Notes under the pieces: model-generated | What the model was told of the DNA's origin: nothing | The model's input: only the letters and a program-made list of their open reading frames with translations | Databases searched by the model: none | DNA from: an uncultured archaeon | GTDB lineage: Archaea; Asgardarchaeota; Thorarchaeia; Thorarchaeales; Thorarchaeaceae | Length of the DNA stretch: 7,865 nucleotides | NCBI GenBank assembly: GCA_964648855.1 | Contig: CAZYLT010000045.1 | Location: 1-7,865, forward strand | Direction: 5' to 3' | In this document: one piece after another, positions 156 to 7,865 of the stretch | Numbering within the stretch: the stretch's first letter is position 1 | Layout: each line of letters starts with the position of its first letter | Translations under genes and position numbers: made by a program

Positions 156-1511
156 ATGCGCGCCTTCATAAGCAAAATAGTAACTACTTGGATCGTTATA
201 GCGCTCGTTACTCCATTTGTTTTCTTGCCGTCAATTTCAGCCTACCAGCCGGGTGACGAAGAGGAGATTTTCGGACATTCATTTGAGGAGGAATATTGGA
301 CAAATGATACGATATCTGTGGAGACCAGCGGCGGAAATGCTAGTTTCACTACATCTTATGTGAATCAGGAGAATTTCTCAGCATTTCTCATTGCATTCAA
401 TCGAATTGTGACAAATGATAGCACAGAGATAATCCTACCGTATCAGTTATTCGGAATGAACTACCTGACGCCCGAGGGCAAAGAAGTGTTTATCGGGTCA
501 ATCTTCGCATTCCTGCTTGTCCACAATGAAACTTATGGCGATAACAACTTGCCAGACGTCGGAAATGAGAATGCATGGTATGTTGTCCCTATGTCAACTG
601 GCAACCCATGGGATGACGTTTCTCCAGCTGTTGAATCAATACCTGTAGAAAAGATGGAAGAGGGACACTACCGGTTTGGCATGAGATACATAAACATGAC
701 CGCTAGGGTAGTATCAACTGGTGGAGAGTTCCTTCTAAGTCTACTATTCCCATTCATGACGGTTCTGTTCAGCGAAATCGTAGTAGAATACGACATTCAG
801 ATTGACCAGACGACGGGTGAGGTCCACGCTGAAACCATCTACACCATTGGTCAGGTGAAGCGAGCTCGAATTGGATTTCAGGACAAAGACCCCTCTGAAG
901 TTATCAATGAGAATATGGAAATAAGTGCAGTGCATTATCTATCGACATTTGAGAGCAATTACAATGTAACGCATTCCTCCAGTGGAAATAGTATAGGACC
1001 TCCAACAAGCACCGACCTCTTGGATGATAATCTGACTATCACAATTGGTGATGACCAGGAGCGAGCCTTCGACATTGGATTGGGGAGGACCTACGACCTC
1101 ATCAATGAAACTACGGATGAAACAATACTAGAGAACCAGGATGCTCTTAACGCATTACTAGCCACCCAGCCTGGCGACTTCCTCCTAATAGCATGGCAAG
1201 CCCCGCTTTCTGCATTTCTCTTTGCACATATGGCCTACGGGCTTTCAGCTACAGTTCGGAACAGATATGATAATGCAGGAAAACTCGCGGCTAACGCCAC
1301 GAATGCGTTTCATAGCAGTCATTGGTGGTATTCAGTGACGTTCCCCGAGTGGAATGGATTGAGAGTTCAACAAGATCCCGTCTATACCGCATACACGGAT
1401 CTAGCAGAAGAAATTCTCCCAGGACCTTCAGATGCAAACAATTTCCTCCTATTCATAGGAATTGGTCTTGTTGCAGTAATCGCTATCGTCTGGGTCCTAA
1501 GAAGAAGATAG
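156..1511 (+). CDS. Secreted, C-terminally membrane-anchored surface (glyco)protein of unknown function, 451 aa
   Basis: Long ORF. N-terminal signal-peptide-like segment (MRAFISKIVTTWIVIALVTPFVFLPSISA), acidic Ser/Thr-rich body with 10 N-x-S/T sequons, and a C-terminal hydrophobic helix plus basic tail (FLLFIGIGLVAVIAIVWVLRRR). Confidence 0.85.
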   Translation: MRAFISKIVTTWIVIALVTPFVFLPSISAYQPGDEEEIFGHSFEEEYWTNDTISVETSGGNASFTTSYVNQENFSAFLIAFNRIVTNDSTEIILPYQLFGMNYLTPEGKEVFIGSIFAFLLVHNETYGDNNLPDVGNENAWYVVPMSTGNPWDDVSPAVESIPVEKMEEGHYRFGMRYINMTARVVSTGGEFLLSLLFPFMTVLFSEIVVEYDIQIDQTTGEVHAETIYTIGQVKRARIGFQDKDPSEVINENMEISAVHYLSTFESNYNVTHSSSGNSIGPPTSTDLLDDNLTITIGDDQERAFDIGLGRTYDLINETTDETILENQDALNALLATQPGDFLLIAWQAPLSAFLFAHMAYGLSATVRNRYDNAGKLAANATNAFHSSHWWYSVTFPEWNGLRVQQDPVYTAYTDLAEEILPGPSDANNFLLFIGIGLVAVIAIVWVLRRR

Positions 1512-1599: not shown

Positions 1600-2214
1600 C
1601 TACTCATCAATCATGGTGCCTGGAGGATATTCCGTCATGAACTCATCTCGGAGGATATCCATATACAGCAGTCCTTTGTAATCGCCATCCACAAACTCAG
1701 TTTCTCGAAAAACTCCAACCTTCTCGAATCCCGCTTTCTCTGCGACATGTATTGCTCGCGGATTGTCTTCCATAATGTCTAGGTATATGCTATGGAGCCC
1801 TAGTATGTGAAATCCAAACCAGAGCATAAGCCGTGTGGCATCCGTTCCATATCCCTTTAGTCGCTGGTCTGGGTCATAGATTGATACCCCGATAGACGCA
1901 CGCATATGGGGGACTTTGATGTCATAGAAACGGGCTATGCCCAATAAGCTGCGGCTCTCTTTCTCGCATATTGCAAAATACACTCTTCCGTCCTGCCATG
2001 GGTCCAGTCGCACACTCTTGTCGAGCCATTCGCTCATGGCGTCGCGAGACTTCGGAATAGGAACACCCATCCATCTTCTCAAGTCCCACTGATTGTACGA
2101 TTCTGTAATTGAGTCTAAATCAGACATCTCCAATGCGCGGAGATAGACAAGCCTTCCATTGTACATAGGCTGATGAAGGTGTATATGTTGATAAATCTCG
2201 TCAAATATAGACAT
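1600..2214 (-). CDS. GNAT family N-acetyltransferase (RimJ/RimL-like)
   Basis: Typical RimJ/RimL pattern: 'VYLRALEMSDL', acetyl-CoA motif A 'QRLKGYGTDA', 'NPRAIHVAEKAGFEKVGVFRE', C-terminal 'YMDILRDEF'. Substrate unknown. Confidence 0.9.
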   Translation of the reverse strand: MSIFDEIYQHIHLHQPMYNGRLVYLRALEMSDLDSITESYNQWDLRRWMGVPIPKSRDAMSEWLDKSVRLDPWQDGRVYFAICEKESRSLLGIARFYDIKVPHMRASIGVSIYDPDQRLKGYGTDATRLMLWFGFHILGLHSIYLDIMEDNPRAIHVAEKAGFEKVGVFRETEFVDGDYKGLLYMDILRDEFMTEYPPGTMIDE

Positions 2215-2555: not shown

Positions 2556-4415
2556 TCATATGAATTTGGCTGGAGATATGATGTCGCCGAATCTTTCCCT
2601 TGCCTCCTCAAGCCGTTGCTGCTGCTCATCCAATAGCCGATAGAATATGTCAGGCACATGTTTTACACTGTCTTCGTATGTATTCCGAATACGAGCTGTT
2701 TTCGCAACCAATTGTGGAATTCTTACTGAAAACTGCGTTTCATAATCTTCTTCCGAAAACTCTTTGCCCAAGTGTGTGTCAAACAGTCTCCTGAGGTCGG
2801 AATAGAGAGGAATGTAGCCTGTGGGAGTTCTTATGGCGTCTGCTTCCTTATGAATTCTCAAATCCATCCAATGTAACCAGACAAGTTTGTCTCGTATCGC
2901 ATTCAGATAATTTCCAGCCTCGTCCTTTAGAAAATAATTCACTGAAAATATCTTAGGAGCTTTTGGTACGAATTCACCAAAGTCCAGATGATTCTGAATA
3001 TATTCACCCAATGGAATCGATACAAAATCCATATTTGAAAATGGTTGGAATTTTCTTATGCCACTCTTACCTAGAGTGGCAGCTGTTGTCTCTGACTCTA
3101 AGCTGGCACCCATGGTGATGACGCCATGGTCCCAACTGAATGACTGTTGAACAGGCACCCAAGTGTCAGGATCTCGGCCTCCATAAATAATCCCACCTAT
3201 CGGTACACCTTCGGCTTTATTCAGGCCATCATCTAGATTTGGTAGACCCTGAAGCTCGATTGTGTAGCGGGCATTCTTATGAGCTGGCAAAATCTCCTCA
3301 CCATTAGCATCGACCTTACCCTCATACCAGATTCCAGAGTGGTTTACTCCTCGTTTCGGGGTTTCTCTACCATCACCAAGCCAATATGGCACCCCATTGT
3401 GAACAAGCACGTTAGAGAATATGACAGGTTGGTCTGAGTGCAAGACATCCCAGATAACCGGGTCATTTTCCTTGGAAACCGACCGTATGATGCCAAATAT
3501 GCCACTTTCGACGTTTACTCCCCTAACCTCGTCATCTATGGTCTTCAGATAAGCAATATCGTCGCCTACTATTGTTGCACCTTGAATCATGGATGTGCTC
3601 GTCTTTCCACAGCCACTCGGGAAGGCTCCGGTGAGGTATGTCTTCCTTTCATCTGGCCCATGAACCGCCATCAAGAACATGTGTTCTGCGAGCCAATCCT
3701 CTCTGTCCGCCTTTCGGATCGCAAGTCGCAGTGCCAGTTTCTTCAGGCCGATGGTGTTACCAGCATATTGAGTATTTACGCTATAGACTGTATTCTCCTT
3801 GTAATCAATAGCAACTCCCCGCTTATCCCAGTCAACACTTGTTCCATGAACCAATTTTCCCGAAGAGTGGAGCATCCAGAAAATCTCAGCGTCATTTGGC
3901 AGTTTCTTGAAATATTCGTAGCCCTGGCGATAGAGAAGATCCTCACTATGTGCAACATAGAACGAATCCGTGATCTGAATACAGGGAACTGAAAATGGTG
4001 AGTCCACCGGACCCAAACAAAAGAAACGAGCTACGAGTTTCTTGTTATGCATACTCCCCTTTAGGCGTCTCTTAACCATCTCCAAGCCTTCTTGGCGGTC
4101 CATTTGGGATAGCTGATCTCCCAGGCTTTCACCTTCCGGGACAAGATAGACGGTCCGTTCTTTGTCTCGTGCCTGGTCATAGAAACCGTCAAAGTGAACA
4201 GTATGATTAGGATTGGCAAGCTGAGTTTCTTCTCCGCGAGCTATGGCGGTCTTGCGAATATAACCGACATCTTCTTCTGCGTCATTACAGACGAATACCT
4301 TCATCGGCTCACAGAGGTTGATAGCATTAGCAATAAAATCGTGAACTCGAGGATTTCGAATCTTCATTAACTTTCTAAAATTGGCGTCATTGAGAGACTG
4401 GTCCAGAATCTCCAT
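2556..4415 (-). CDS. pckG: Phosphoenolpyruvate carboxykinase (GTP), archaeal type, ~619 aa
   Basis: Motifs YAGNTIGLKK, WLAEHM (metal-binding His), P-loop GAFPSGCGKTS, kinase-2 VGDDIA, IYGGR and VNYFLKD. Start placed at ATG 4415 (M53 of the track ORF) because the upstream 52 codons overlap the promoter region and ~620 aa fits this family. The exact start could be a few codons upstream (GAGGTG at 4439-4434). Confidence 0.95.
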   Translation of the reverse strand: MEILDQSLNDANFRKLMKIRNPRVHDFIANAINLCEPMKVFVCNDAEEDVGYIRKTAIARGEETQLANPNHTVHFDGFYDQARDKERTVYLVPEGESLGDQLSQMDRQEGLEMVKRRLKGSMHNKKLVARFFCLGPVDSPFSVPCIQITDSFYVAHSEDLLYRQGYEYFKKLPNDAEIFWMLHSSGKLVHGTSVDWDKRGVAIDYKENTVYSVNTQYAGNTIGLKKLALRLAIRKADREDWLAEHMFLMAVHGPDERKTYLTGAFPSGCGKTSTSMIQGATIVGDDIAYLKTIDDEVRGVNVESGIFGIIRSVSKENDPVIWDVLHSDQPVIFSNVLVHNGVPYWLGDGRETPKRGVNHSGIWYEGKVDANGEEILPAHKNARYTIELQGLPNLDDGLNKAEGVPIGGIIYGGRDPDTWVPVQQSFSWDHGVITMGASLESETTAATLGKSGIRKFQPFSNMDFVSIPLGEYIQNHLDFGEFVPKAPKIFSVNYFLKDEAGNYLNAIRDKLVWLHWMDLRIHKEADAIRTPTGYIPLYSDLRRLFDTHLGKEFSEEDYETQFSVRIPQLVAKTARIRNTYEDSVKHVPDIFYRLLDEQQQRLEEARERFGDIISPAKFI

Positions 4416-4482
4416 GGTATCGAGCAGTTTGCACACCTCAACAGAACGTAGTAGCCCTGTCACATTTTGCTTAGGCCGTGTG

Positions 4483-4496
4483 TTTATAATTTCACC
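4483..4496 (-). promoter_or_regulatory. Candidate BRE/TATA promoter of pckG
   Basis: Minus strand reads GGTGAAA-TTATAAA, with TATA at 4489-4483, about 70 nt upstream of ATG 4415. Confidence 0.55.
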
Positions 4497-4679
4497 GTCA
4501 GTTGCAAAAGTTTCACGATGATTCTTACTATCTCTTGAGCAAGAAGTTCTCCCATCTCCCAATATGTCCAATCATGCAGGTCGGTAAAAGCAAGACTGAT
4601 TAAGCACATTGTTTGAGTCGTGTTGTGGGGCATCATCTCGTTGATGCCTAGTTGCACTCAAGCCAACTGGTGACAAATA

Positions 4680-6863
4680 TTGACTATAAAGGAATTCAAG
4701 TATGAAATCCCCAAACTTGAGCACGGTTACAACAACCAAACGCTCTACATCAACCTGTCTGACAATTCAATTCAAATCAAACCGGTTGATGAAAAGATGA
4801 AAGAGGCATTTACTGGAGGCAAGGGTTTTGACCTCTGGTTAATGTGGAATAGCTTACCCAACGACAAGATTGTGAAGTGGGATGACAAAGAAAATGTGCT
4901 CTGCATTGCTTGCGGACCTCTTGGTGGCGTGACGATGTATCCAGGAGCAGGCAAATCTATCGTGACAACAATCTCACCTGCAACTGGTATTCCAATTGAC
5001 AGCAATGTTGGAGGCTATTTTGGACCTAATCTGAAATTCGCAGGATTCGATGCCATGGAGATCCAAGGCAAGGCAAAAGACGACGTCTACATTTTCATCG
5101 ATGGTGATAGGGGCAAAATCGAAATCCACGATGCGAGTGACCTTCCAGATACTGCTTACGAGATTACACGAGTCCTGAGTGAACGACATACCGAGAAAGA
5201 AGGAAAAGATATGTCTGTTGTCGCTGCTGGACCCGCTGCAGAACATGCCTGGATGGGCTGTCTGAATTTCAGCTGGTGGGACATGAGGCGTGATATCCCA
5301 CGTTACAAGCAAGCTGGAAGGGGAGGAACTGGCACAGTGTTCCGCAATAAGAAGGTCAAAGCACTTGCTGCAAAACTAGACAAGATCACTCTTGATATGA
5401 ATAACCCAGCTGACCCGGATGAGCTGAAAGACGTTGGTAGAAGCCACTCCCGAGAAATCCTGCAGCTTGATGAGAAGCAGAACCGCATGAGAGAGATTGG
5501 AACCGCTCACCTGCCGTCTATCATGGATGAATTCGATCTGCTCCCGACTAGAAATTTCAGAGCTGGTAGCGACCCCGAAGCCAAGTATCTGTATGGCGAT
5601 GTCTGGAAAAAATGCTATACCAATGAAGGAAAGGGATGGGACGGCTGTTGGAGACCCTGCGCCATCAATTGTTCTCATTGTATAGAGGACTTTGAGATTC
5701 GTACTGGAGACTTCGCTGGTCAGGAAGTTGTTGTCGACGGTCCAGAATACGAAACAATAGCGGGCTGTGGTTCCAACACTGGCATCTTCGACCCAAAATG
5801 GGTTGCGGAGATAAACTTCTATTGTGATGCATATGGCATCGACACCATCAGTTTTGGAACGACCATGGCCTTTGTCATGGAGCTGTTCGAAGGAGGACAT
5901 ATCGATAAAAAAGCAACAGGTGGCCATATCCTCAATTGGGGTGCTGCAGAACAGGCGCTCGCTGTATTGCATGAGATGGCATCCGGCGAAGGCTTTGGCG
6001 GTAATCACTTCGGAAAGGGTATTCGATATCTCAAGAAATATTTCGGAACTGAATTTGGCGTAGACCAAGATTTGATGCACGACATAGGAATGGAACACAA
6101 AGGGCTCGAGTACAGCGAGTACGTGACCAAAGAGAGCTTGGCTCAGCAGGGAGGTTATGGGCTTACTTTAAAGGGGCCTCAGCATGACGAAGCTTGGTTG
6201 ATTTTCCTCGATATGGTCCATAACTACATGCCAACCTTTGAAGATAAGGCAGAGGCGCTCTACTGGTTCCCCATGTGGCGGACGTGGTTCGGCCTTAACG
6301 GGCTCTGCAAGCTGCCTTGGAACGACGTCGTTCCCGCGGACAATGCAGACACCGATGAACCATCCAAAGTTCCCAAACACTTGCAGTACTATGCCCGATT
6401 CTTCCAGTCTATGACAGGCAGGGAAACAAAGCCCAATGATCTTATCATACAGTCTGAAAGGGTCTACAATTTCCAGCGCTTATTCAACATCCGACAGGGT
6501 AAGGGTCTAAGGCTCCATGACTCGTATATTCCGTATCGAAGCATGGGCCCGGTGACTGATTGGGAATATGAGAGCCGTCAGGACCGCTATGATGAACAGC
6601 TGAAGGAGCTGGGTGTTGACATCGAAGGCATGTCAATCACTGAGAGAAAAGACAGGCTCCGTGAGCATCGAGAAGAGATGTACGGACAGTTGACCGATGC
6701 AGCTTACAAGCGAAGAGGCTGGACACGTAACGGTGTACCAACCATGAAGAAGGTCAAGGAGCTCGGTATTGACTTTTCATCTGTTATCGAATGGGTAAAG
6801 AAATTTGAAGATTCTGAACCGCCCGAGGACACGCTACCCAAGAGTGACGATGCGTGGAAATAA
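4680..6863 (+). CDS. aor: Aldehyde:ferredoxin oxidoreductase family (tungstopterin/4Fe-4S, AOR/WOR family), 727 aa
   Basis: TTG start with GGTGA RBS at 4669-4673. AOR-family motifs: SPATG..DSNVGGYFG..LKFAGFD, AGRGGTGTV, Cys cluster CWRPCAINC, GPEYET, CDAYGIDTISFG, distal Cys in GLCKLPW, C-terminal RGWTRNGVPT. Substrate not determinable from sequence. Confidence 0.93.
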   Translation: MTIKEFKYEIPKLEHGYNNQTLYINLSDNSIQIKPVDEKMKEAFTGGKGFDLWLMWNSLPNDKIVKWDDKENVLCIACGPLGGVTMYPGAGKSIVTTISPATGIPIDSNVGGYFGPNLKFAGFDAMEIQGKAKDDVYIFIDGDRGKIEIHDASDLPDTAYEITRVLSERHTEKEGKDMSVVAAGPAAEHAWMGCLNFSWWDMRRDIPRYKQAGRGGTGTVFRNKKVKALAAKLDKITLDMNNPADPDELKDVGRSHSREILQLDEKQNRMREIGTAHLPSIMDEFDLLPTRNFRAGSDPEAKYLYGDVWKKCYTNEGKGWDGCWRPCAINCSHCIEDFEIRTGDFAGQEVVVDGPEYETIAGCGSNTGIFDPKWVAEINFYCDAYGIDTISFGTTMAFVMELFEGGHIDKKATGGHILNWGAAEQALAVLHEMASGEGFGGNHFGKGIRYLKKYFGTEFGVDQDLMHDIGMEHKGLEYSEYVTKESLAQQGGYGLTLKGPQHDEAWLIFLDMVHNYMPTFEDKAEALYWFPMWRTWFGLNGLCKLPWNDVVPADNADTDEPSKVPKHLQYYARFFQSMTGRETKPNDLIIQSERVYNFQRLFNIRQGKGLRLHDSYIPYRSMGPVTDWEYESRQDRYDEQLKELGVDIEGMSITERKDRLREHREEMYGQLTDAAYKRRGWTRNGVPTMKKVKELGIDFSSVIEWVKKFEDSEPPEDTLPKSDDAWK

Positions 6864-6962: not shown

Positions 6963-7422
6963 CTAGACGACTTCTTCCATTGCTCGTCGAGCTGAATTTT
7001 CCATGGCTTCTACTCTTCTCAGATGCCAGCCCTCAAGCCCGGACTTGAGCACGTCAATATTGTTCAGAATCTCAACTGAGGGGCGGGCTCTAATATGTCG
7101 CAATACTCTATACCGACTATAATGCGTACTGCTTGCACATATTTCCACAAGACGGGTTGTCACATTCTCACCAGCCAACTTGCTGATAGCCCTCAGAGCA
7201 CTTGCACCCCAGTTTCTACCTTTGTTTACAAATGGCAGAAGGCTATCGAGAGACTCCGCCAATCCAATCTCACCAAGCACTCTGAATATCTTAACTGCAG
7301 TATAGTAGTACTTGGTCTGCGATAAGAATTCGTGTAGATGTGGTGCTACAACCGAATAGGCATGTTCCTCTAGATAAACTATTTCTGACAGATTGAGTGA
7401 CCTCAACGTGTCTGAAACTTCT
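6963..7422 (-). pseudogene. HEAT/PBS-lyase-repeat-like helical protein, probably 5'-truncated
   Basis: About 150 open codons with HEAT-like helical pairs (VKIFRVLGEIGLAESLDSLLPFV; ASALRAISKLAGENVTTRLVEI). The track's GTG start (7451) lies inside the GC-rich structured island. In host-like sequence there is no ATG near the 5' end, although an in-frame TTG near 7406 could serve as a start. Confidence 0.5.
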
Positions 7423-7805
7423 GTGTTCCACCCGTCCCCTGCCAGCGTCACCGCCCCCAGCGTACCCGAAGGCCACTGAGTCAGCAGGGGCTTTGTCTGT
7501 GGTCATCGGGATGGGATCCCTCCCACAGTCCTGGCTTCCTCCTCCTGTGCATGTCCTGAGGCATCACTCTCAGCCACAGGGAGGCTTTCCACAGTCTTTA
7601 CCACGGCGGGTTCATGATCACCCTTCCTGGCTCCGTCACCGAAGGCAGCAAGACTCGTCTGAGCATGGTGAACAGCCGCGGACTCTCCGGGAGCTGATGG
7701 ACTTCCTTGTGTGGAGAGTAAGGACCTCCGTCGAGAAGAAGACTTCTTCCCTCGGGCTTTCGGCGGCGAGCTCCGCGCGACGTTGCTGGCCCACTCACCT
7801 AGTCC
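7423..7805 (-). ncRNA. Large structured non-coding RNA (~380 nt); candidate TnpB-type omega/reRNA scaffold
   Basis: About 62% GC (222/360 over 7441-7800) versus about 40% over 7321-7420. Minus-strand hairpins near 7754-7732, 7729-7713, 7623-7608 (K-loop), 7606-7589, 7584-7541, 7528-7497 (K-turn) and 7480-7456 (cUUCGg), with outer stem 7490-7482/7444-7436. Many G-U pairs work only on the minus strand. TATA box 28 nt upstream. RNA ends are approximate. Confidence 0.65.
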
Positions 7806-7826
7806 AGTATTGAGTCTGACGGGGGC

Positions 7827-7833
7827 TATTTAA
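7827..7833 (-). promoter_or_regulatory. TATA box driving the structured RNA
   Basis: TTAAATA (7833-7827) is the clearest TATA-like AT run in this GC-rich stretch. G7805 lies 28 nt from its first T, the usual archaeal spacing, and coincides with the start of the structured region. Confidence 0.55.
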
Positions 7834-7865
7834 GCTGCCACAAAACTCGCGGTGAGCACAGCTAG

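What the first reader, a model, noticed from the sequence alone, without database searches (positions are those of the whole stretch)
7403..7833. Stand-alone, self-promoted ~380-nt structured RNA: candidate orphan TnpB-type guide (omega/re) RNA in an archaeon
Seen: a GC-rich island with at least seven minus-strand stem-loops. Examples are CUCAGUGGCC-UUCG-GGU(A)CGCUGGG (7480-7456; three G-U pairs plus the ultrastable cUUCGg loop) and CCGUGGU-AAAG-ACUGUGG (7606-7589; three G-U pairs). There is a well-spaced TATA box, and the terminal stem CCCCUGCUG/UGGCAGGGG is followed by ACGGGUGGAACAC and then an abrupt switch to ~40% GC host coding sequence. Established: IS200/IS605 TnpB nucleases use an RNA from the element's right end that overlaps the tnpB 3' end, with a 3' guide read from flanking DNA. 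Inference: this is such a scaffold, unusually long, uncoupled from tnpB and separately transcribed, so it could guide a TnpB or nuclease-dead derivative in trans. If it is not TnpB-related, it is still a large ncRNA that I cannot match to a known class.
Basis: partly seen in the sequence, partly recalled or inferred. Interest (0 to 1): 0.85.

Follow-up and report, generated by a model that had tools for sequence, protein, structure and literature searches.

The report
Gene-less mobile element carrying TnpB guide-RNA scaffold
The GC-rich island is the end of a 563-bp, protein-less jumping element in a Thorarchaeota (Asgard) genome that keeps only a promoter and a very large (~435 nt) folded RNA derived from the guide RNA of TnpB nucleases; this is a known kind of element, seen here in a new lineage and at unusual size.

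Summary
Window 7865-7369 (minus strand) is the 3' 497 nt of a 563-bp repeat with about 12-16 copies or fragments in this Thorarchaeota MAG. Many contigs, including this one, break inside it.

- **Origin:** the RNA part (7806-7370) is homologous to the last ~108 codons, 3' UTR and right end of Asgard-type tnpB genes. That is where TnpB guide (omega) RNAs are encoded.
- **Fold:** about 20 helices are supported by covariation in 60 homologues (82% paired versus ~42% in slid controls).
- **Selection:** the tnpB-less copies keep the fold better than neutral drift predicts, although the leftover reading frame is broken in 7 of 11.
- **Promoter:** these copies carry a conserved TATA box about 25 nt upstream of the conserved RNA start, GGACUAGG. 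Full-length genes have coding sequence there.
- **Insertion:** this copy splits a ~390-aa gene at TCTAGA(G). The gene is intact in a sister genome.

Corrections:
- The element ends at 7369, not 7423.
- One proposed hairpin is really two long-range helices.
- It is a mobile deletion derivative, not a unique gene.

Transcription, TnpB binding and guide use are inferred. No closely cognate TnpB is assembled in this genome. Stand-alone omega RNAs are already described, so this is a new member of a known kind.

The parts
7369..7865 (-). 3' 497 nt (element positions ~68-563) of one copy of the 563-bp tnpB-less repeat. The 5' ~71 nt of this copy are on contig C18:71-1 (L118), overlapping by CTAG.
   Evidence: 26+ matches in the genome, sharp ends. 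(C18 and C45 are the two halves of one interrupted gene).
7827..7833 (-). TATA-like box TTAAATA, centred about 25 nt upstream of the conserved RNA start; a purine-rich stretch lies just upstream. It contains the TAA that closes the remnant frame on its 5' side.
   Evidence: TTAAATA / ATAAATA / TATATA is kept at the same distance in 8 tnpB-less copies from two genera, while full-length tnpB genes have coding sequence there. Promoter activity is inferred, not shown.
7370..7806 (-). About 437-nt structured RNA scaffold (omega-RNA homologue), with about 20 helices.
   Evidence: nhmmer hits in tnpB loci begin sharply at this 5' end. (covariation). (window copy 91% paired on a structure derived only from full-length tnpB rows). 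(G.U+U.G 532 versus A.C+C.A 151 cells, which fixes the strand).
7798..7805 (-). GGACUAGG, the nearly invariant 5' motif where nucleotide-level conservation starts; predicted transcription start or mature 5' end.
7503..7829 (-). Remnant of the TnpB C-terminal tail frame: 108 codons plus a stop at the homologous place (...GGIPSR*). It has no start codon and is 45-50% identical to the own-genome TnpB tails.
   Evidence: The frame is broken in 7 of 11 other orphans.
7601..7681 (-). Helix 7 (7681-7675 with 7607-7601) enclosing helices 8-11.
   Evidence: 97.6% paired; coordinates.
7421..7594 (-). Long-range helix 12 (CUGUG 7594-7590 with CACAG 7425-7421), closing the 3' domain.
   Evidence: 99.3% paired, 4 of 5 pairs with double changes.
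7437..7489 (-). Helix 19 (CCCUGCU/GGCAGGG), enclosing the variable UUCG-capped hairpin (helix 20, 7480-7456) and helix 21.
7381..7418 (-). Terminal module: closing helix GUUUC.AGAC / GUC.GAAAU around a hairpin GUUGAG-GUCA-CUCAAU. It holds the family motif G(U)UCACUCA at 7402-7394.
   Evidence: (helices 22-24), (motif in a hairpin loop in 43 of 57 homologues). The motif was noted in PMC10691335.
7369..7374 (-). TCTAGA, the last six bases of the element. The same hexamer precedes or starts the left end in all young copies.
7349..7368 (-). Flank GGAACAUGCCUAUUCGGUUG, the predicted guide if the RNA reads through the right end as in characterised TnpB systems.
   Evidence: The position follows. It is unique in the genome. 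Guide function is inferred, not shown.
6966..7368 (-). C-terminal third of a ~390-aa gene (weak HEAT-repeat match) split by the insertion. The N-terminal 258 residues are on C18:837-64.

Best explanation
The island is the right-hand 88% of a 563-bp non-autonomous mobile element. This element descends, by loss of almost the whole tnpB reading frame, from an Asgard-type TnpB transposon.

What remains:
- a ~100-nt left end,
- an archaeal TATA promoter,
- the complete ~435-nt omega-RNA scaffold, which in full-length elements overlaps the last ~110 codons of tnpB and runs to the right end.

Proposed mechanism:
1. Transcription starts about 25 nt after the TATA box, at GGACUAGG (about 7806). This gives directly the 5' end that full-length elements would have to produce by processing the tnpB mRNA.
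2. The transcript runs through the right end (7369) into the flank, which supplies a ~16-20-nt guide specific to the locus.
3. A TnpB made elsewhere binds the scaffold and cuts the empty site (TCTAGA(G) followed by the guide match). The element is then restored by recombination after excision, as shown for bacterial IS200/IS605 TnpB.

Shown here: homology to tnpB 3' ends, multicopy mobility, insertion into a gene at TCTAGA(G), the conserved fold, selection on the fold after loss of tnpB, and conservation of the TATA box.

Inferred: transcription, read-through, TnpB binding, TAM identity and homing.
For: 1. Multicopy repeat with sharp ends at element positions 1 and 563 and unrelated flanks; many contigs end inside it.
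2. Diverged copies overlap the 3' end of four intact TnpB genes in this genome, and nhmmer finds the same RNA at about 55 Thorarchaeota tnpB loci, starting sharply at GGACTAGG. RuvC D/E/D and the zinc-ribbon cysteines are invariant in the four own TnpBs.
3. Window 7829-7506 aligns with the TnpB tail and stops at the same place.
4. Covariation: a structure derived from 8 orphans gives 82.2% paired cells on 60 sequences against 39-45% for slid controls, and 1046 double-change cells against 251-379; 0 of 500 shuffles reach it. A structure derived only from 49 full-length rows is 91% paired in the window copy. G.U outnumbers A.C by 3.5:1.
5. In full-length genes the tail evolves like RNA rather than protein. 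Identity by codon position is .66/.63/.58 in the tail against .64/.72/.39 in the core.
6. Orphans: the tail frame is broken in 7 of 11, yet all 8 same-origin orphans keep more pairing than random placement of their own substitutions (window .909 versus .858, p=.004; six at 0 of 2000).
7. The TATA box is kept at -29..-22 in all 8 short forms from two genera and is absent from full-length genes.
8. Insertion: the G001 ortholog reads ...TTT CTG GAG AAA CAT.... The own genome reads ...TTT CTA GAG|element|...TATCTAGAG|GAA CAT....
9. Stand-alone omega RNAs working in trans, and PATEs encoding omega RNAs, are described (PMC10691335; 10.1101/2023.03.14.532601).
10. Tail-only copies co-occur with full-length tnpB in other genera, e.g. 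G003, G022 and G021.
Against:
- The RNAs of the four intact TnpBs in this genome are only 49-63% identical to the orphan RNA. The nearest full-length type (L046/L050, 76-81%) is in other genomes, and only decayed remnants of a closer parent are present here (C1:207717, C1:272699).
- No Y1 TnpA was found in the genome, so the mobilising enzyme is unknown.
- The TCTAGA at both junctions fits a target-site duplication as well as a TAM/TEM pair.
- The left end does not match the upstream region of any full-length tnpB locus fetched, so the deletion origin of the promoter is not demonstrated.
- Copy C20 has decayed to 79% pairing.
Confidence: 0.7

Rival explanations
1. Inert relic. The copies are dead deletion products of TnpB elements that spread or persisted passively. 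The RNA, if made at all, has no partner and no function in this genome.
For: - No close cognate TnpB is assembled: RNA identity to the own full-length loci is 49-63%.
- Parent remnants are decayed.
- The tail frame is broken in most copies.
- C20 is down to 79% pairing and many variable pairs have an unpaired copy.
- No TnpA was found.
Against: - Substitutions avoid paired columns, and pairing exceeds the neutral expectation in all 8 orphans.
- There are 10 compensatory pairs among the orphans themselves.
- The TATA box is conserved across two genera at 80-88% overall identity.
- Near-identical young copies break at least 10 contigs, which implies recent spread.
Confidence: 0.2
2. The RNA has a TnpB-independent role: for example a cis-acting structure needed for mobilisation by an unknown enzyme, or a regulatory or antisense RNA acting on the gene it reads into.
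For: - At ~435 nt the scaffold is much larger than the ~116-130-nt functional ISDra2 omega-RNA core (PMC10097598), leaving room for other functions.
- The transposase is unknown.
- A giant unannotated gene accompanies tnpB in at least 27 loci.
Against: - The RNA is conserved as a unit with tnpB in about 55 loci.
- G.U-rich covariation argues for RNA rather than DNA structure.
- Orphan flanks are unique and unrelated, and no second target was found in the genome.
Confidence: 0.07
3. It encodes a small protein: the 108-codon tail frame, or the 138-aa plus-strand ORF 7397-7813.
For: Both frames are open in the window copy.
Against: - The tail frame has no start codon.
- It has stops or frameshifts in 7 of 11 orphans. 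The C8 copy is frameshifted relative to the window, which would shift a frame on either strand.
- The codon-position profile is flat.
- The plus-strand ORF has no Pfam match.
Confidence: 0.02
4. It is a member of an already curated RNA class (RNase P, SRP, group I/II intron, HEARO and the like).
For: GGAAGUCC-like and ACAGAA-like strings first suggested RNase P to me.
Against: No Rfam hit at gathering thresholds, and none relevant at E<=10. The genome's RNase P RNA is at C6:41563-41894, 155 bits.
Confidence: 0.01

Closest known systems
Stand-alone omega RNAs / PATE-like non-autonomous IS200/IS605 derivatives that encode omega RNA (Altae-Tran et al. 2021 as summarised in PMC10691335; Meers et al., 10.1101/2023.03.14.532601)
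   Same: A protein-less, multi-copy element that keeps the transposon ends and the guide-RNA scaffold of a TnpB element. The guide would come from the flank, and the element must rely on TnpB (and a transposase) supplied in trans.
   Different: - The host is an Asgard archaeon.
- The scaffold is ~435 nt.
- A dedicated archaeal TATA box is placed so that initiation would give the mature 5' end.
- No Y1 TnpA is present in the genome, and the classic subterminal hairpins were not demonstrated.
- No close cognate TnpB is assembled in this genome.
Asgard TnpB groups 'Cas1H-Asgard-1/2' with a conserved GTTCACTCA motif downstream of tnpB (PMC10691335)
   Same: [quoted passage not shown]
   Different: - That paper suggested the variable stretch upstream of the motif might be the guide. 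Here that stretch is identical in copies inserted at different sites, and it mostly forms the 5' arm of a hairpin whose loop is the motif.
- Cas1 is not adjacent to tnpB in this genome; a 1,716-aa unannotated ORF is.
- Whether the two families are identical was not tested beyond the motif.
ISDra2 TnpB omega RNA (PMC10097598)
   Same: It overlaps the 3' end of tnpB and the right end. The overlapped C-terminal protein segment is dispensable or disordered there, and here it evolves without a codon signature. The guide lies 3' of the scaffold.
   Different: - The ISDra2 functional core is about 116-130 nt with TAM TTGAT.
- Here about 20 helices span ~435 nt, and the candidate TAM is TCTAGA(G).
- No sequence or Rfam-level similarity was detected.

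Membership tests
TnpB omega RNA (OMEGA guide RNA) | Encoded at or homologous to the 3' end of a tnpB ORF plus the transposon right end | tested here: met
   The window frame 7829-7506 aligns to the TnpB C-terminal tails and shares their stop. The same RNA is found at about 55 tnpB loci.
TnpB omega RNA (OMEGA guide RNA) | Conserved, structured scaffold on the tnpB-sense strand | tested here: met
   82% paired versus ~42% slid; 0 of 500 shuffles; G.U:A.C = 3.5:1.
TnpB omega RNA (OMEGA guide RNA) | Scaffold ends at the element boundary and the adjacent variable flank serves as guide | tested here: inconclusive
   A sharp boundary at 7369 with unrelated, unique flanks is shown. Read-through and guide use could not be tested.
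TnpB omega RNA (OMEGA guide RNA) | Binds TnpB and directs TAM-dependent DNA cleavage | not testable with these tools
   Needs biochemistry.
PATE / non-autonomous IS200/IS605 element | No protein-coding capacity; multiple copies with conserved ends at different loci; insertion absent from an orthologous site | tested here: met
PATE / non-autonomous IS200/IS605 element | Mobilised by a Y1 (HUH) TnpA that recognises subterminal hairpins | tested here: not met
   No PF01797 match in the 94.6%-complete genome. LE and RE instead share an imperfect inverted repeat, read by eye from the copies (TCTAGWTAAA...TGWCAGATT); it was not tested statistically. I therefore describe the element as working like a PATE rather than file it as an IS200/IS605 member.
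PATE / non-autonomous IS200/IS605 element | Insertion 3' of a short specific motif (TAM) without target duplication | tested here: inconclusive
   TCTAGA(G) occurs once in the empty site and at both junctions after insertion. This is compatible with a TAM/TEM pair or with a 6-7-bp target-site duplication at a specific target.
Asgard aCas1-associated TnpB transposons (PMC10691335) | Conserved GTTCACTCA motif downstream of tnpB | tested here: met
Asgard aCas1-associated TnpB transposons (PMC10691335) | Cas1 homologue encoded next to tnpB | tested here: not met
   The own-genome Cas1 genes (C32, C42) are on contigs without tnpB. The conserved neighbour is a 1,716-aa ORF with no Cas1 Pfam match.
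Curated Rfam families (RNase P, SRP, introns, HEARO and others) | Score at or above the family gathering threshold | tested here: not met

The most novel reading that the evidence does not exclude
The orphan elements may be a self-sufficient class of 'RNA-only' selfish elements in Asgard archaea. On this reading a promoter-driven, ~435-nt RNA has been kept under selection for its fold after losing its nuclease gene. It would either recruit distantly related TnpBs (RNAs only 49-63% identical), or its large extra domains (the 5' ~230 nt have no counterpart in characterised TnpB RNAs) would carry a function of their own, such as self-processing or recruitment of another protein (for instance the 1,716-aa tnpB neighbour).
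Probability: 0.15. Interest if true: 0.8.

Novelty: new member of a known kind. Interest (0 to 1): 0.5.

Why it matters
- It defines, with covariation support, a large RNA family absent from Rfam that accompanies TnpB nucleases throughout Thorarchaeota, the archaeal lineage close to eukaryotes.
- It shows that tnpB-less copies with their own promoter spread and stay under RNA-level selection. This is a natural case of guide and nuclease being separated.
- It places the guide at the element's flank rather than at the 'hypervariable' stretch proposed in the literature.
- It gives a candidate TAM (TCTAGA) and exact RNA ends that make the system directly testable, including as a source of new compact editors.
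- Practically, this repeat explains many contig breaks in the MAG and one disrupted gene.

Tried and rejected
- **RNase P.** This was my first reading, from GGAAGUCC/ACAGAA-like strings and a possible 5'/3' terminal pairing. Rejected: no Rfam hit, RNase P is at C6:41563, and the terminal pairing is not kept in other copies.
- **Single-sequence folding energy.** z = -0.75, uninformative.
- **Empty site for the C8 copy.** Not found in sister genomes; flanks are only ~80% identical and the match ends at a contig end. The empty site was obtained instead for the window copy, through the interrupted gene.
- **Origin of the left end and promoter.** No similarity to upstream regions of full-length tnpB loci. 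Candidate parents in G006 and G001 turned out to be further contig-end fragments.
- **Loop-loop pairing GAGUGA/UCACUC.** Not kept in the distant subfamily, so dropped.
- **Cas1 as neighbour of tnpB.** Not found.
- **Second genomic targets for the 20-nt flanks.** None beyond chance 11-14-mers.
- **tRNA scan of the window.** None found.
- **Recurrent single TGA 'stops' in tnpB matches of relatives.** Most, though not all (e.g. G018:C91), are in matches that begin at the first few profile positions, so I guess they fall in an upstream extension of the profile rather than being recoding; I did not check the TGA positions.

Full report
**What is at the coordinates.**
The window is an entire 7,865-bp contig (C45) of a 3.1-Mb, 62-contig genome. 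Homologous loci carry titles of Thorarchaeota MAGs, so the organism is an Asgard archaeon.

The island is real: 60-62% GC against 42-49% nearby. It gave no Rfam hit at gathering thresholds or at E<=10. Its single-sequence folding energy is no better than shuffles (z = -0.75). The genome's RNase P RNA lies elsewhere.

**It is a repeat.**
The minus strand of 7380-7865 has 26 matches in the same genome, many of them at contig ends. Using the complete copy on C8, the repeat is 563 bp with sharp ends.
- Full copies: C8:17520-18082, C56:1075-498, C20:368-942, C6:105878-106449 and C34:5144-4596.
- About ten further copies are cut by contig ends, the window's among them.
- The window holds element positions ~68-563, and conservation stops at 7369 (...TATCTAGA|), not at 7423.

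**It derives from tnpB.**
More diverged matches (65-78% identity) overlap the 3' ends of ORFs of 557-623 aa. These carry the Cas12f1-like TNB domain and weak OrfB_IS605 and guided_TnpB matches. The RuvC D/E/D residues and the CxxC pairs are invariant in all four.

Read on the minus strand, window 7829-7506 is an open frame without a start codon. It is 45-50% identical to the last ~108 residues of these TnpBs and ends at the homologous stop.

An nhmmer profile of the short elements finds the same sequence at the 3' end of about 55 Thorarchaeota tnpB loci. Almost every hit begins at the same place, GGACTAGG (window 7805-7798).

In full-length genes the ~110-codon tail has nearly flat identity across codon positions (.66/.63/.58). 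The upstream core shows the usual coding pattern (.64/.72/.39). The tail also has lower amino-acid but higher nucleotide identity than the core. The tail is therefore constrained mainly as RNA.

**The fold.**
I derived a structure from only the eight same-origin orphan copies and counted it on 60 homologues (alignment A2). It gives:
- 82.2% standard pairs against 39-45% when the partners are slid by 1-3 columns;
- 1,046 cells with changes on both sides against 251-379;
- none of 500 shuffles reaching any of the five observed measures.

A structure derived only from the 49 rows linked to full-length tnpB is 91% paired in the window copy and 87-94% in ten of the eleven orphans. This equals the 91% mean of the full-length rows. 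G.U plus U.G cells outnumber A.C plus C.A by 532 to 151, which fixes the strand as tnpB-sense, the window's minus strand.

The CCGUGGU-AAAG-ACUGUGG hairpin is not. Its two halves belong to long-range helices 7 and 12, and the latter uses the CACAG of 'GGAACACAG'.

The 3' module is a closing helix (consensus UUUCUUGC/GCAAGAAA) around a hairpin whose loop is the family motif GUUCACU.

**Relation to the literature.**
- PMC10691335 describes Asgard TnpB groups with a conserved GTTCACTCA downstream of tnpB. It suggested that the variable stretch upstream of the motif might be the guide.
- In the orphan copies of this genome that stretch is the same at every insertion site, whereas the flank after TCTAGA differs. 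In most homologues it pairs with the sequence in and after the motif. The flank is therefore the better guide candidate.
- The same paper and Meers et al. record that stand-alone omega RNAs and PATE-like elements encoding omega RNAs exist, and that stand-alone omega RNAs work in trans. The kind is therefore known.
- The ISDra2 omega RNA has a functional core of about 116-130 nt. The present scaffold is about three to four times larger.

**What is special about the tnpB-less copies.**
- *Promoter.* Upstream of GGACTAGG the full-length genes have coding sequence (NADRNG...NIARRLI...). The eight short copies, from two genera, have non-coding sequence with TTAAATA, ATAAATA or TATATA at -29..-22. 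In the window this is 7833-7827. That geometry fits an archaeal TATA box, with initiation at the conserved RNA 5' end. This is an inference from established promoter architecture.
- *Frame and fold.* The remnant frame is broken in 7 of 11 orphans, yet substitutions avoid paired columns. In the window copy 3 of 19 substitutions fall in the 46% of columns that are paired. All eight orphans keep more pairing than random placement of their own substitutions (p <= 0.012; six at 0 of 2000). Ten pairs show compensatory changes among the orphans alone.
- *Distribution.* Tail-only copies also occur beside full-length tnpB in other genera: G003, G018, G022 and G021.

**Mobility and target.**
The ORF downstream of the element is the C-terminal third of a ~390-aa protein that is uninterrupted in G001, G008 and G012. 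Its first 258 residues are on contig C18, which ends in the element's left end. The sequences compare as follows:
- G001: ...GCA GCG TTT CTG GAG AAA CAT GCC...
- this genome: ...GCA AGG TTT CTA GAG|TGATGC...element...AGTTTATCTAGAG|GAA CAT GCC...

So the element inserted at a single TCTAGA(G). All young copies start with or follow TCTAGAG and end with TCTAGA. This fits the IS200/IS605 pattern of a transposon-adjacent motif mirrored by a transposon-encoded motif. It fits equally a 6-7-bp duplication of a specific target.

After precise excision the donor joint would be TCTAGAG followed by GAACATGCC.... That is exactly what a right-end read-through RNA would match.

**Caveats.**
- No Y1 transposase was found.
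- Cas1 genes are not next to tnpB.
- The orphan RNA is only 49-63% identical to the RNAs of the four intact own TnpBs. The nearest full-length type is 76-81% identical and lies in other genomes. Only decayed remnants of a closer parent are present here.
- Expression could not be checked.

**Verdict.**
Identity is secure: an orphan, promoter-bearing TnpB omega-RNA element that is mobile and multi-copy. Function as a guide in trans is the most likely reading but is unproven. It is a new member of a known kind. Its added value is the first covariation-supported model of the very large Asgard TnpB RNA and a concrete TAM and guide prediction.

Noticed in passing
L117:417-5567 (-) = G000:C19; also L116:317-3799 (+) = G000:C4, L012:1-2379 (-), L013:5853-8000 (+): A giant ORF (1,716 aa on C19) lies directly upstream of, and divergent from, all four intact tnpB genes of this genome and at least 27 Thorarchaeota tnpB loci. 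Paralogues are 27-57% identical. There is no Pfam, NCBIfam or PDB-sequence match; the only lead is a weak AAA-ATPase-like hit from the protein atlas. It could be the unknown partner or transposase of these elements.
   Followed up: partly
window 6966-7368 (-) and L118 (G000:C18:64-837, -): A ~390-aa gene (weak HEAT-repeat match) is split by the element. Contigs C18 and C45 are neighbours joined through this repeat and overlap by CTAG.
   Followed up: yes
G000:C1:317539, C2:230768, C4:9217, C11:30964 (L036, L037, L038, L014): Four solitary 60-100-nt pieces resemble only the element's left end (CCCC..TTTTCTAGTTAAATTGTCCAATAGAAGTGTCAGATTT). They have no RNA part or TATA box after them. They may be solo ends or ends of another element family.
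   Followed up: partly
L013 (C21), L012 (C28), L079, L049, L107: just 3' of the tnpB-linked RNA: Several full-length tnpB elements are followed within ~30 nt by sequence that looks by eye like the reverse complement of a tRNA 3' half (e.g. GGTGCGGCCGCCGGGAATCGAACCCGGG). This suggests insertion next to tRNA genes. No tRNA scan was run on these loci.
   Followed up: no
L010 (G000:C29:18232-18754, -): A TnpB remnant (last ~128 residues, 78% identical to the C19 TnpB) with its RNA sits upstream of an McrB-like AAA_5 / McrC gene pair.
   Followed up: partly
L012 and L013, upstream of tnpB (C28:~7900-8119; C21:~14114-14330): The left side of full-length elements carries two TTAAATA-containing repeats. 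It also has an inverted copy of the right-end motif (GAGTGAACTC) and a direct copy of ACAGGTCAG, so the two ends are related (also noted by earlier readers).
   Followed up: no
window 156-1511 (+), 1600-2214 (-), 2556-4571 (-), 4680-6863 (+): The rest of the contig is ordinary: an unannotated 451-aa ORF, a GNAT acetyltransferase, GTP-dependent PEP carboxykinase and an aldehyde:ferredoxin oxidoreductase.
   Followed up: yes
G003, G018, G022, G002: Tail-only copies without tnpB outnumber full-length tnpB in some sister genomes (at least 12 in G022). L026 and L029 (genus g3) have a different upstream sequence, which suggests that orphans arose more than once.
   Followed up: partly
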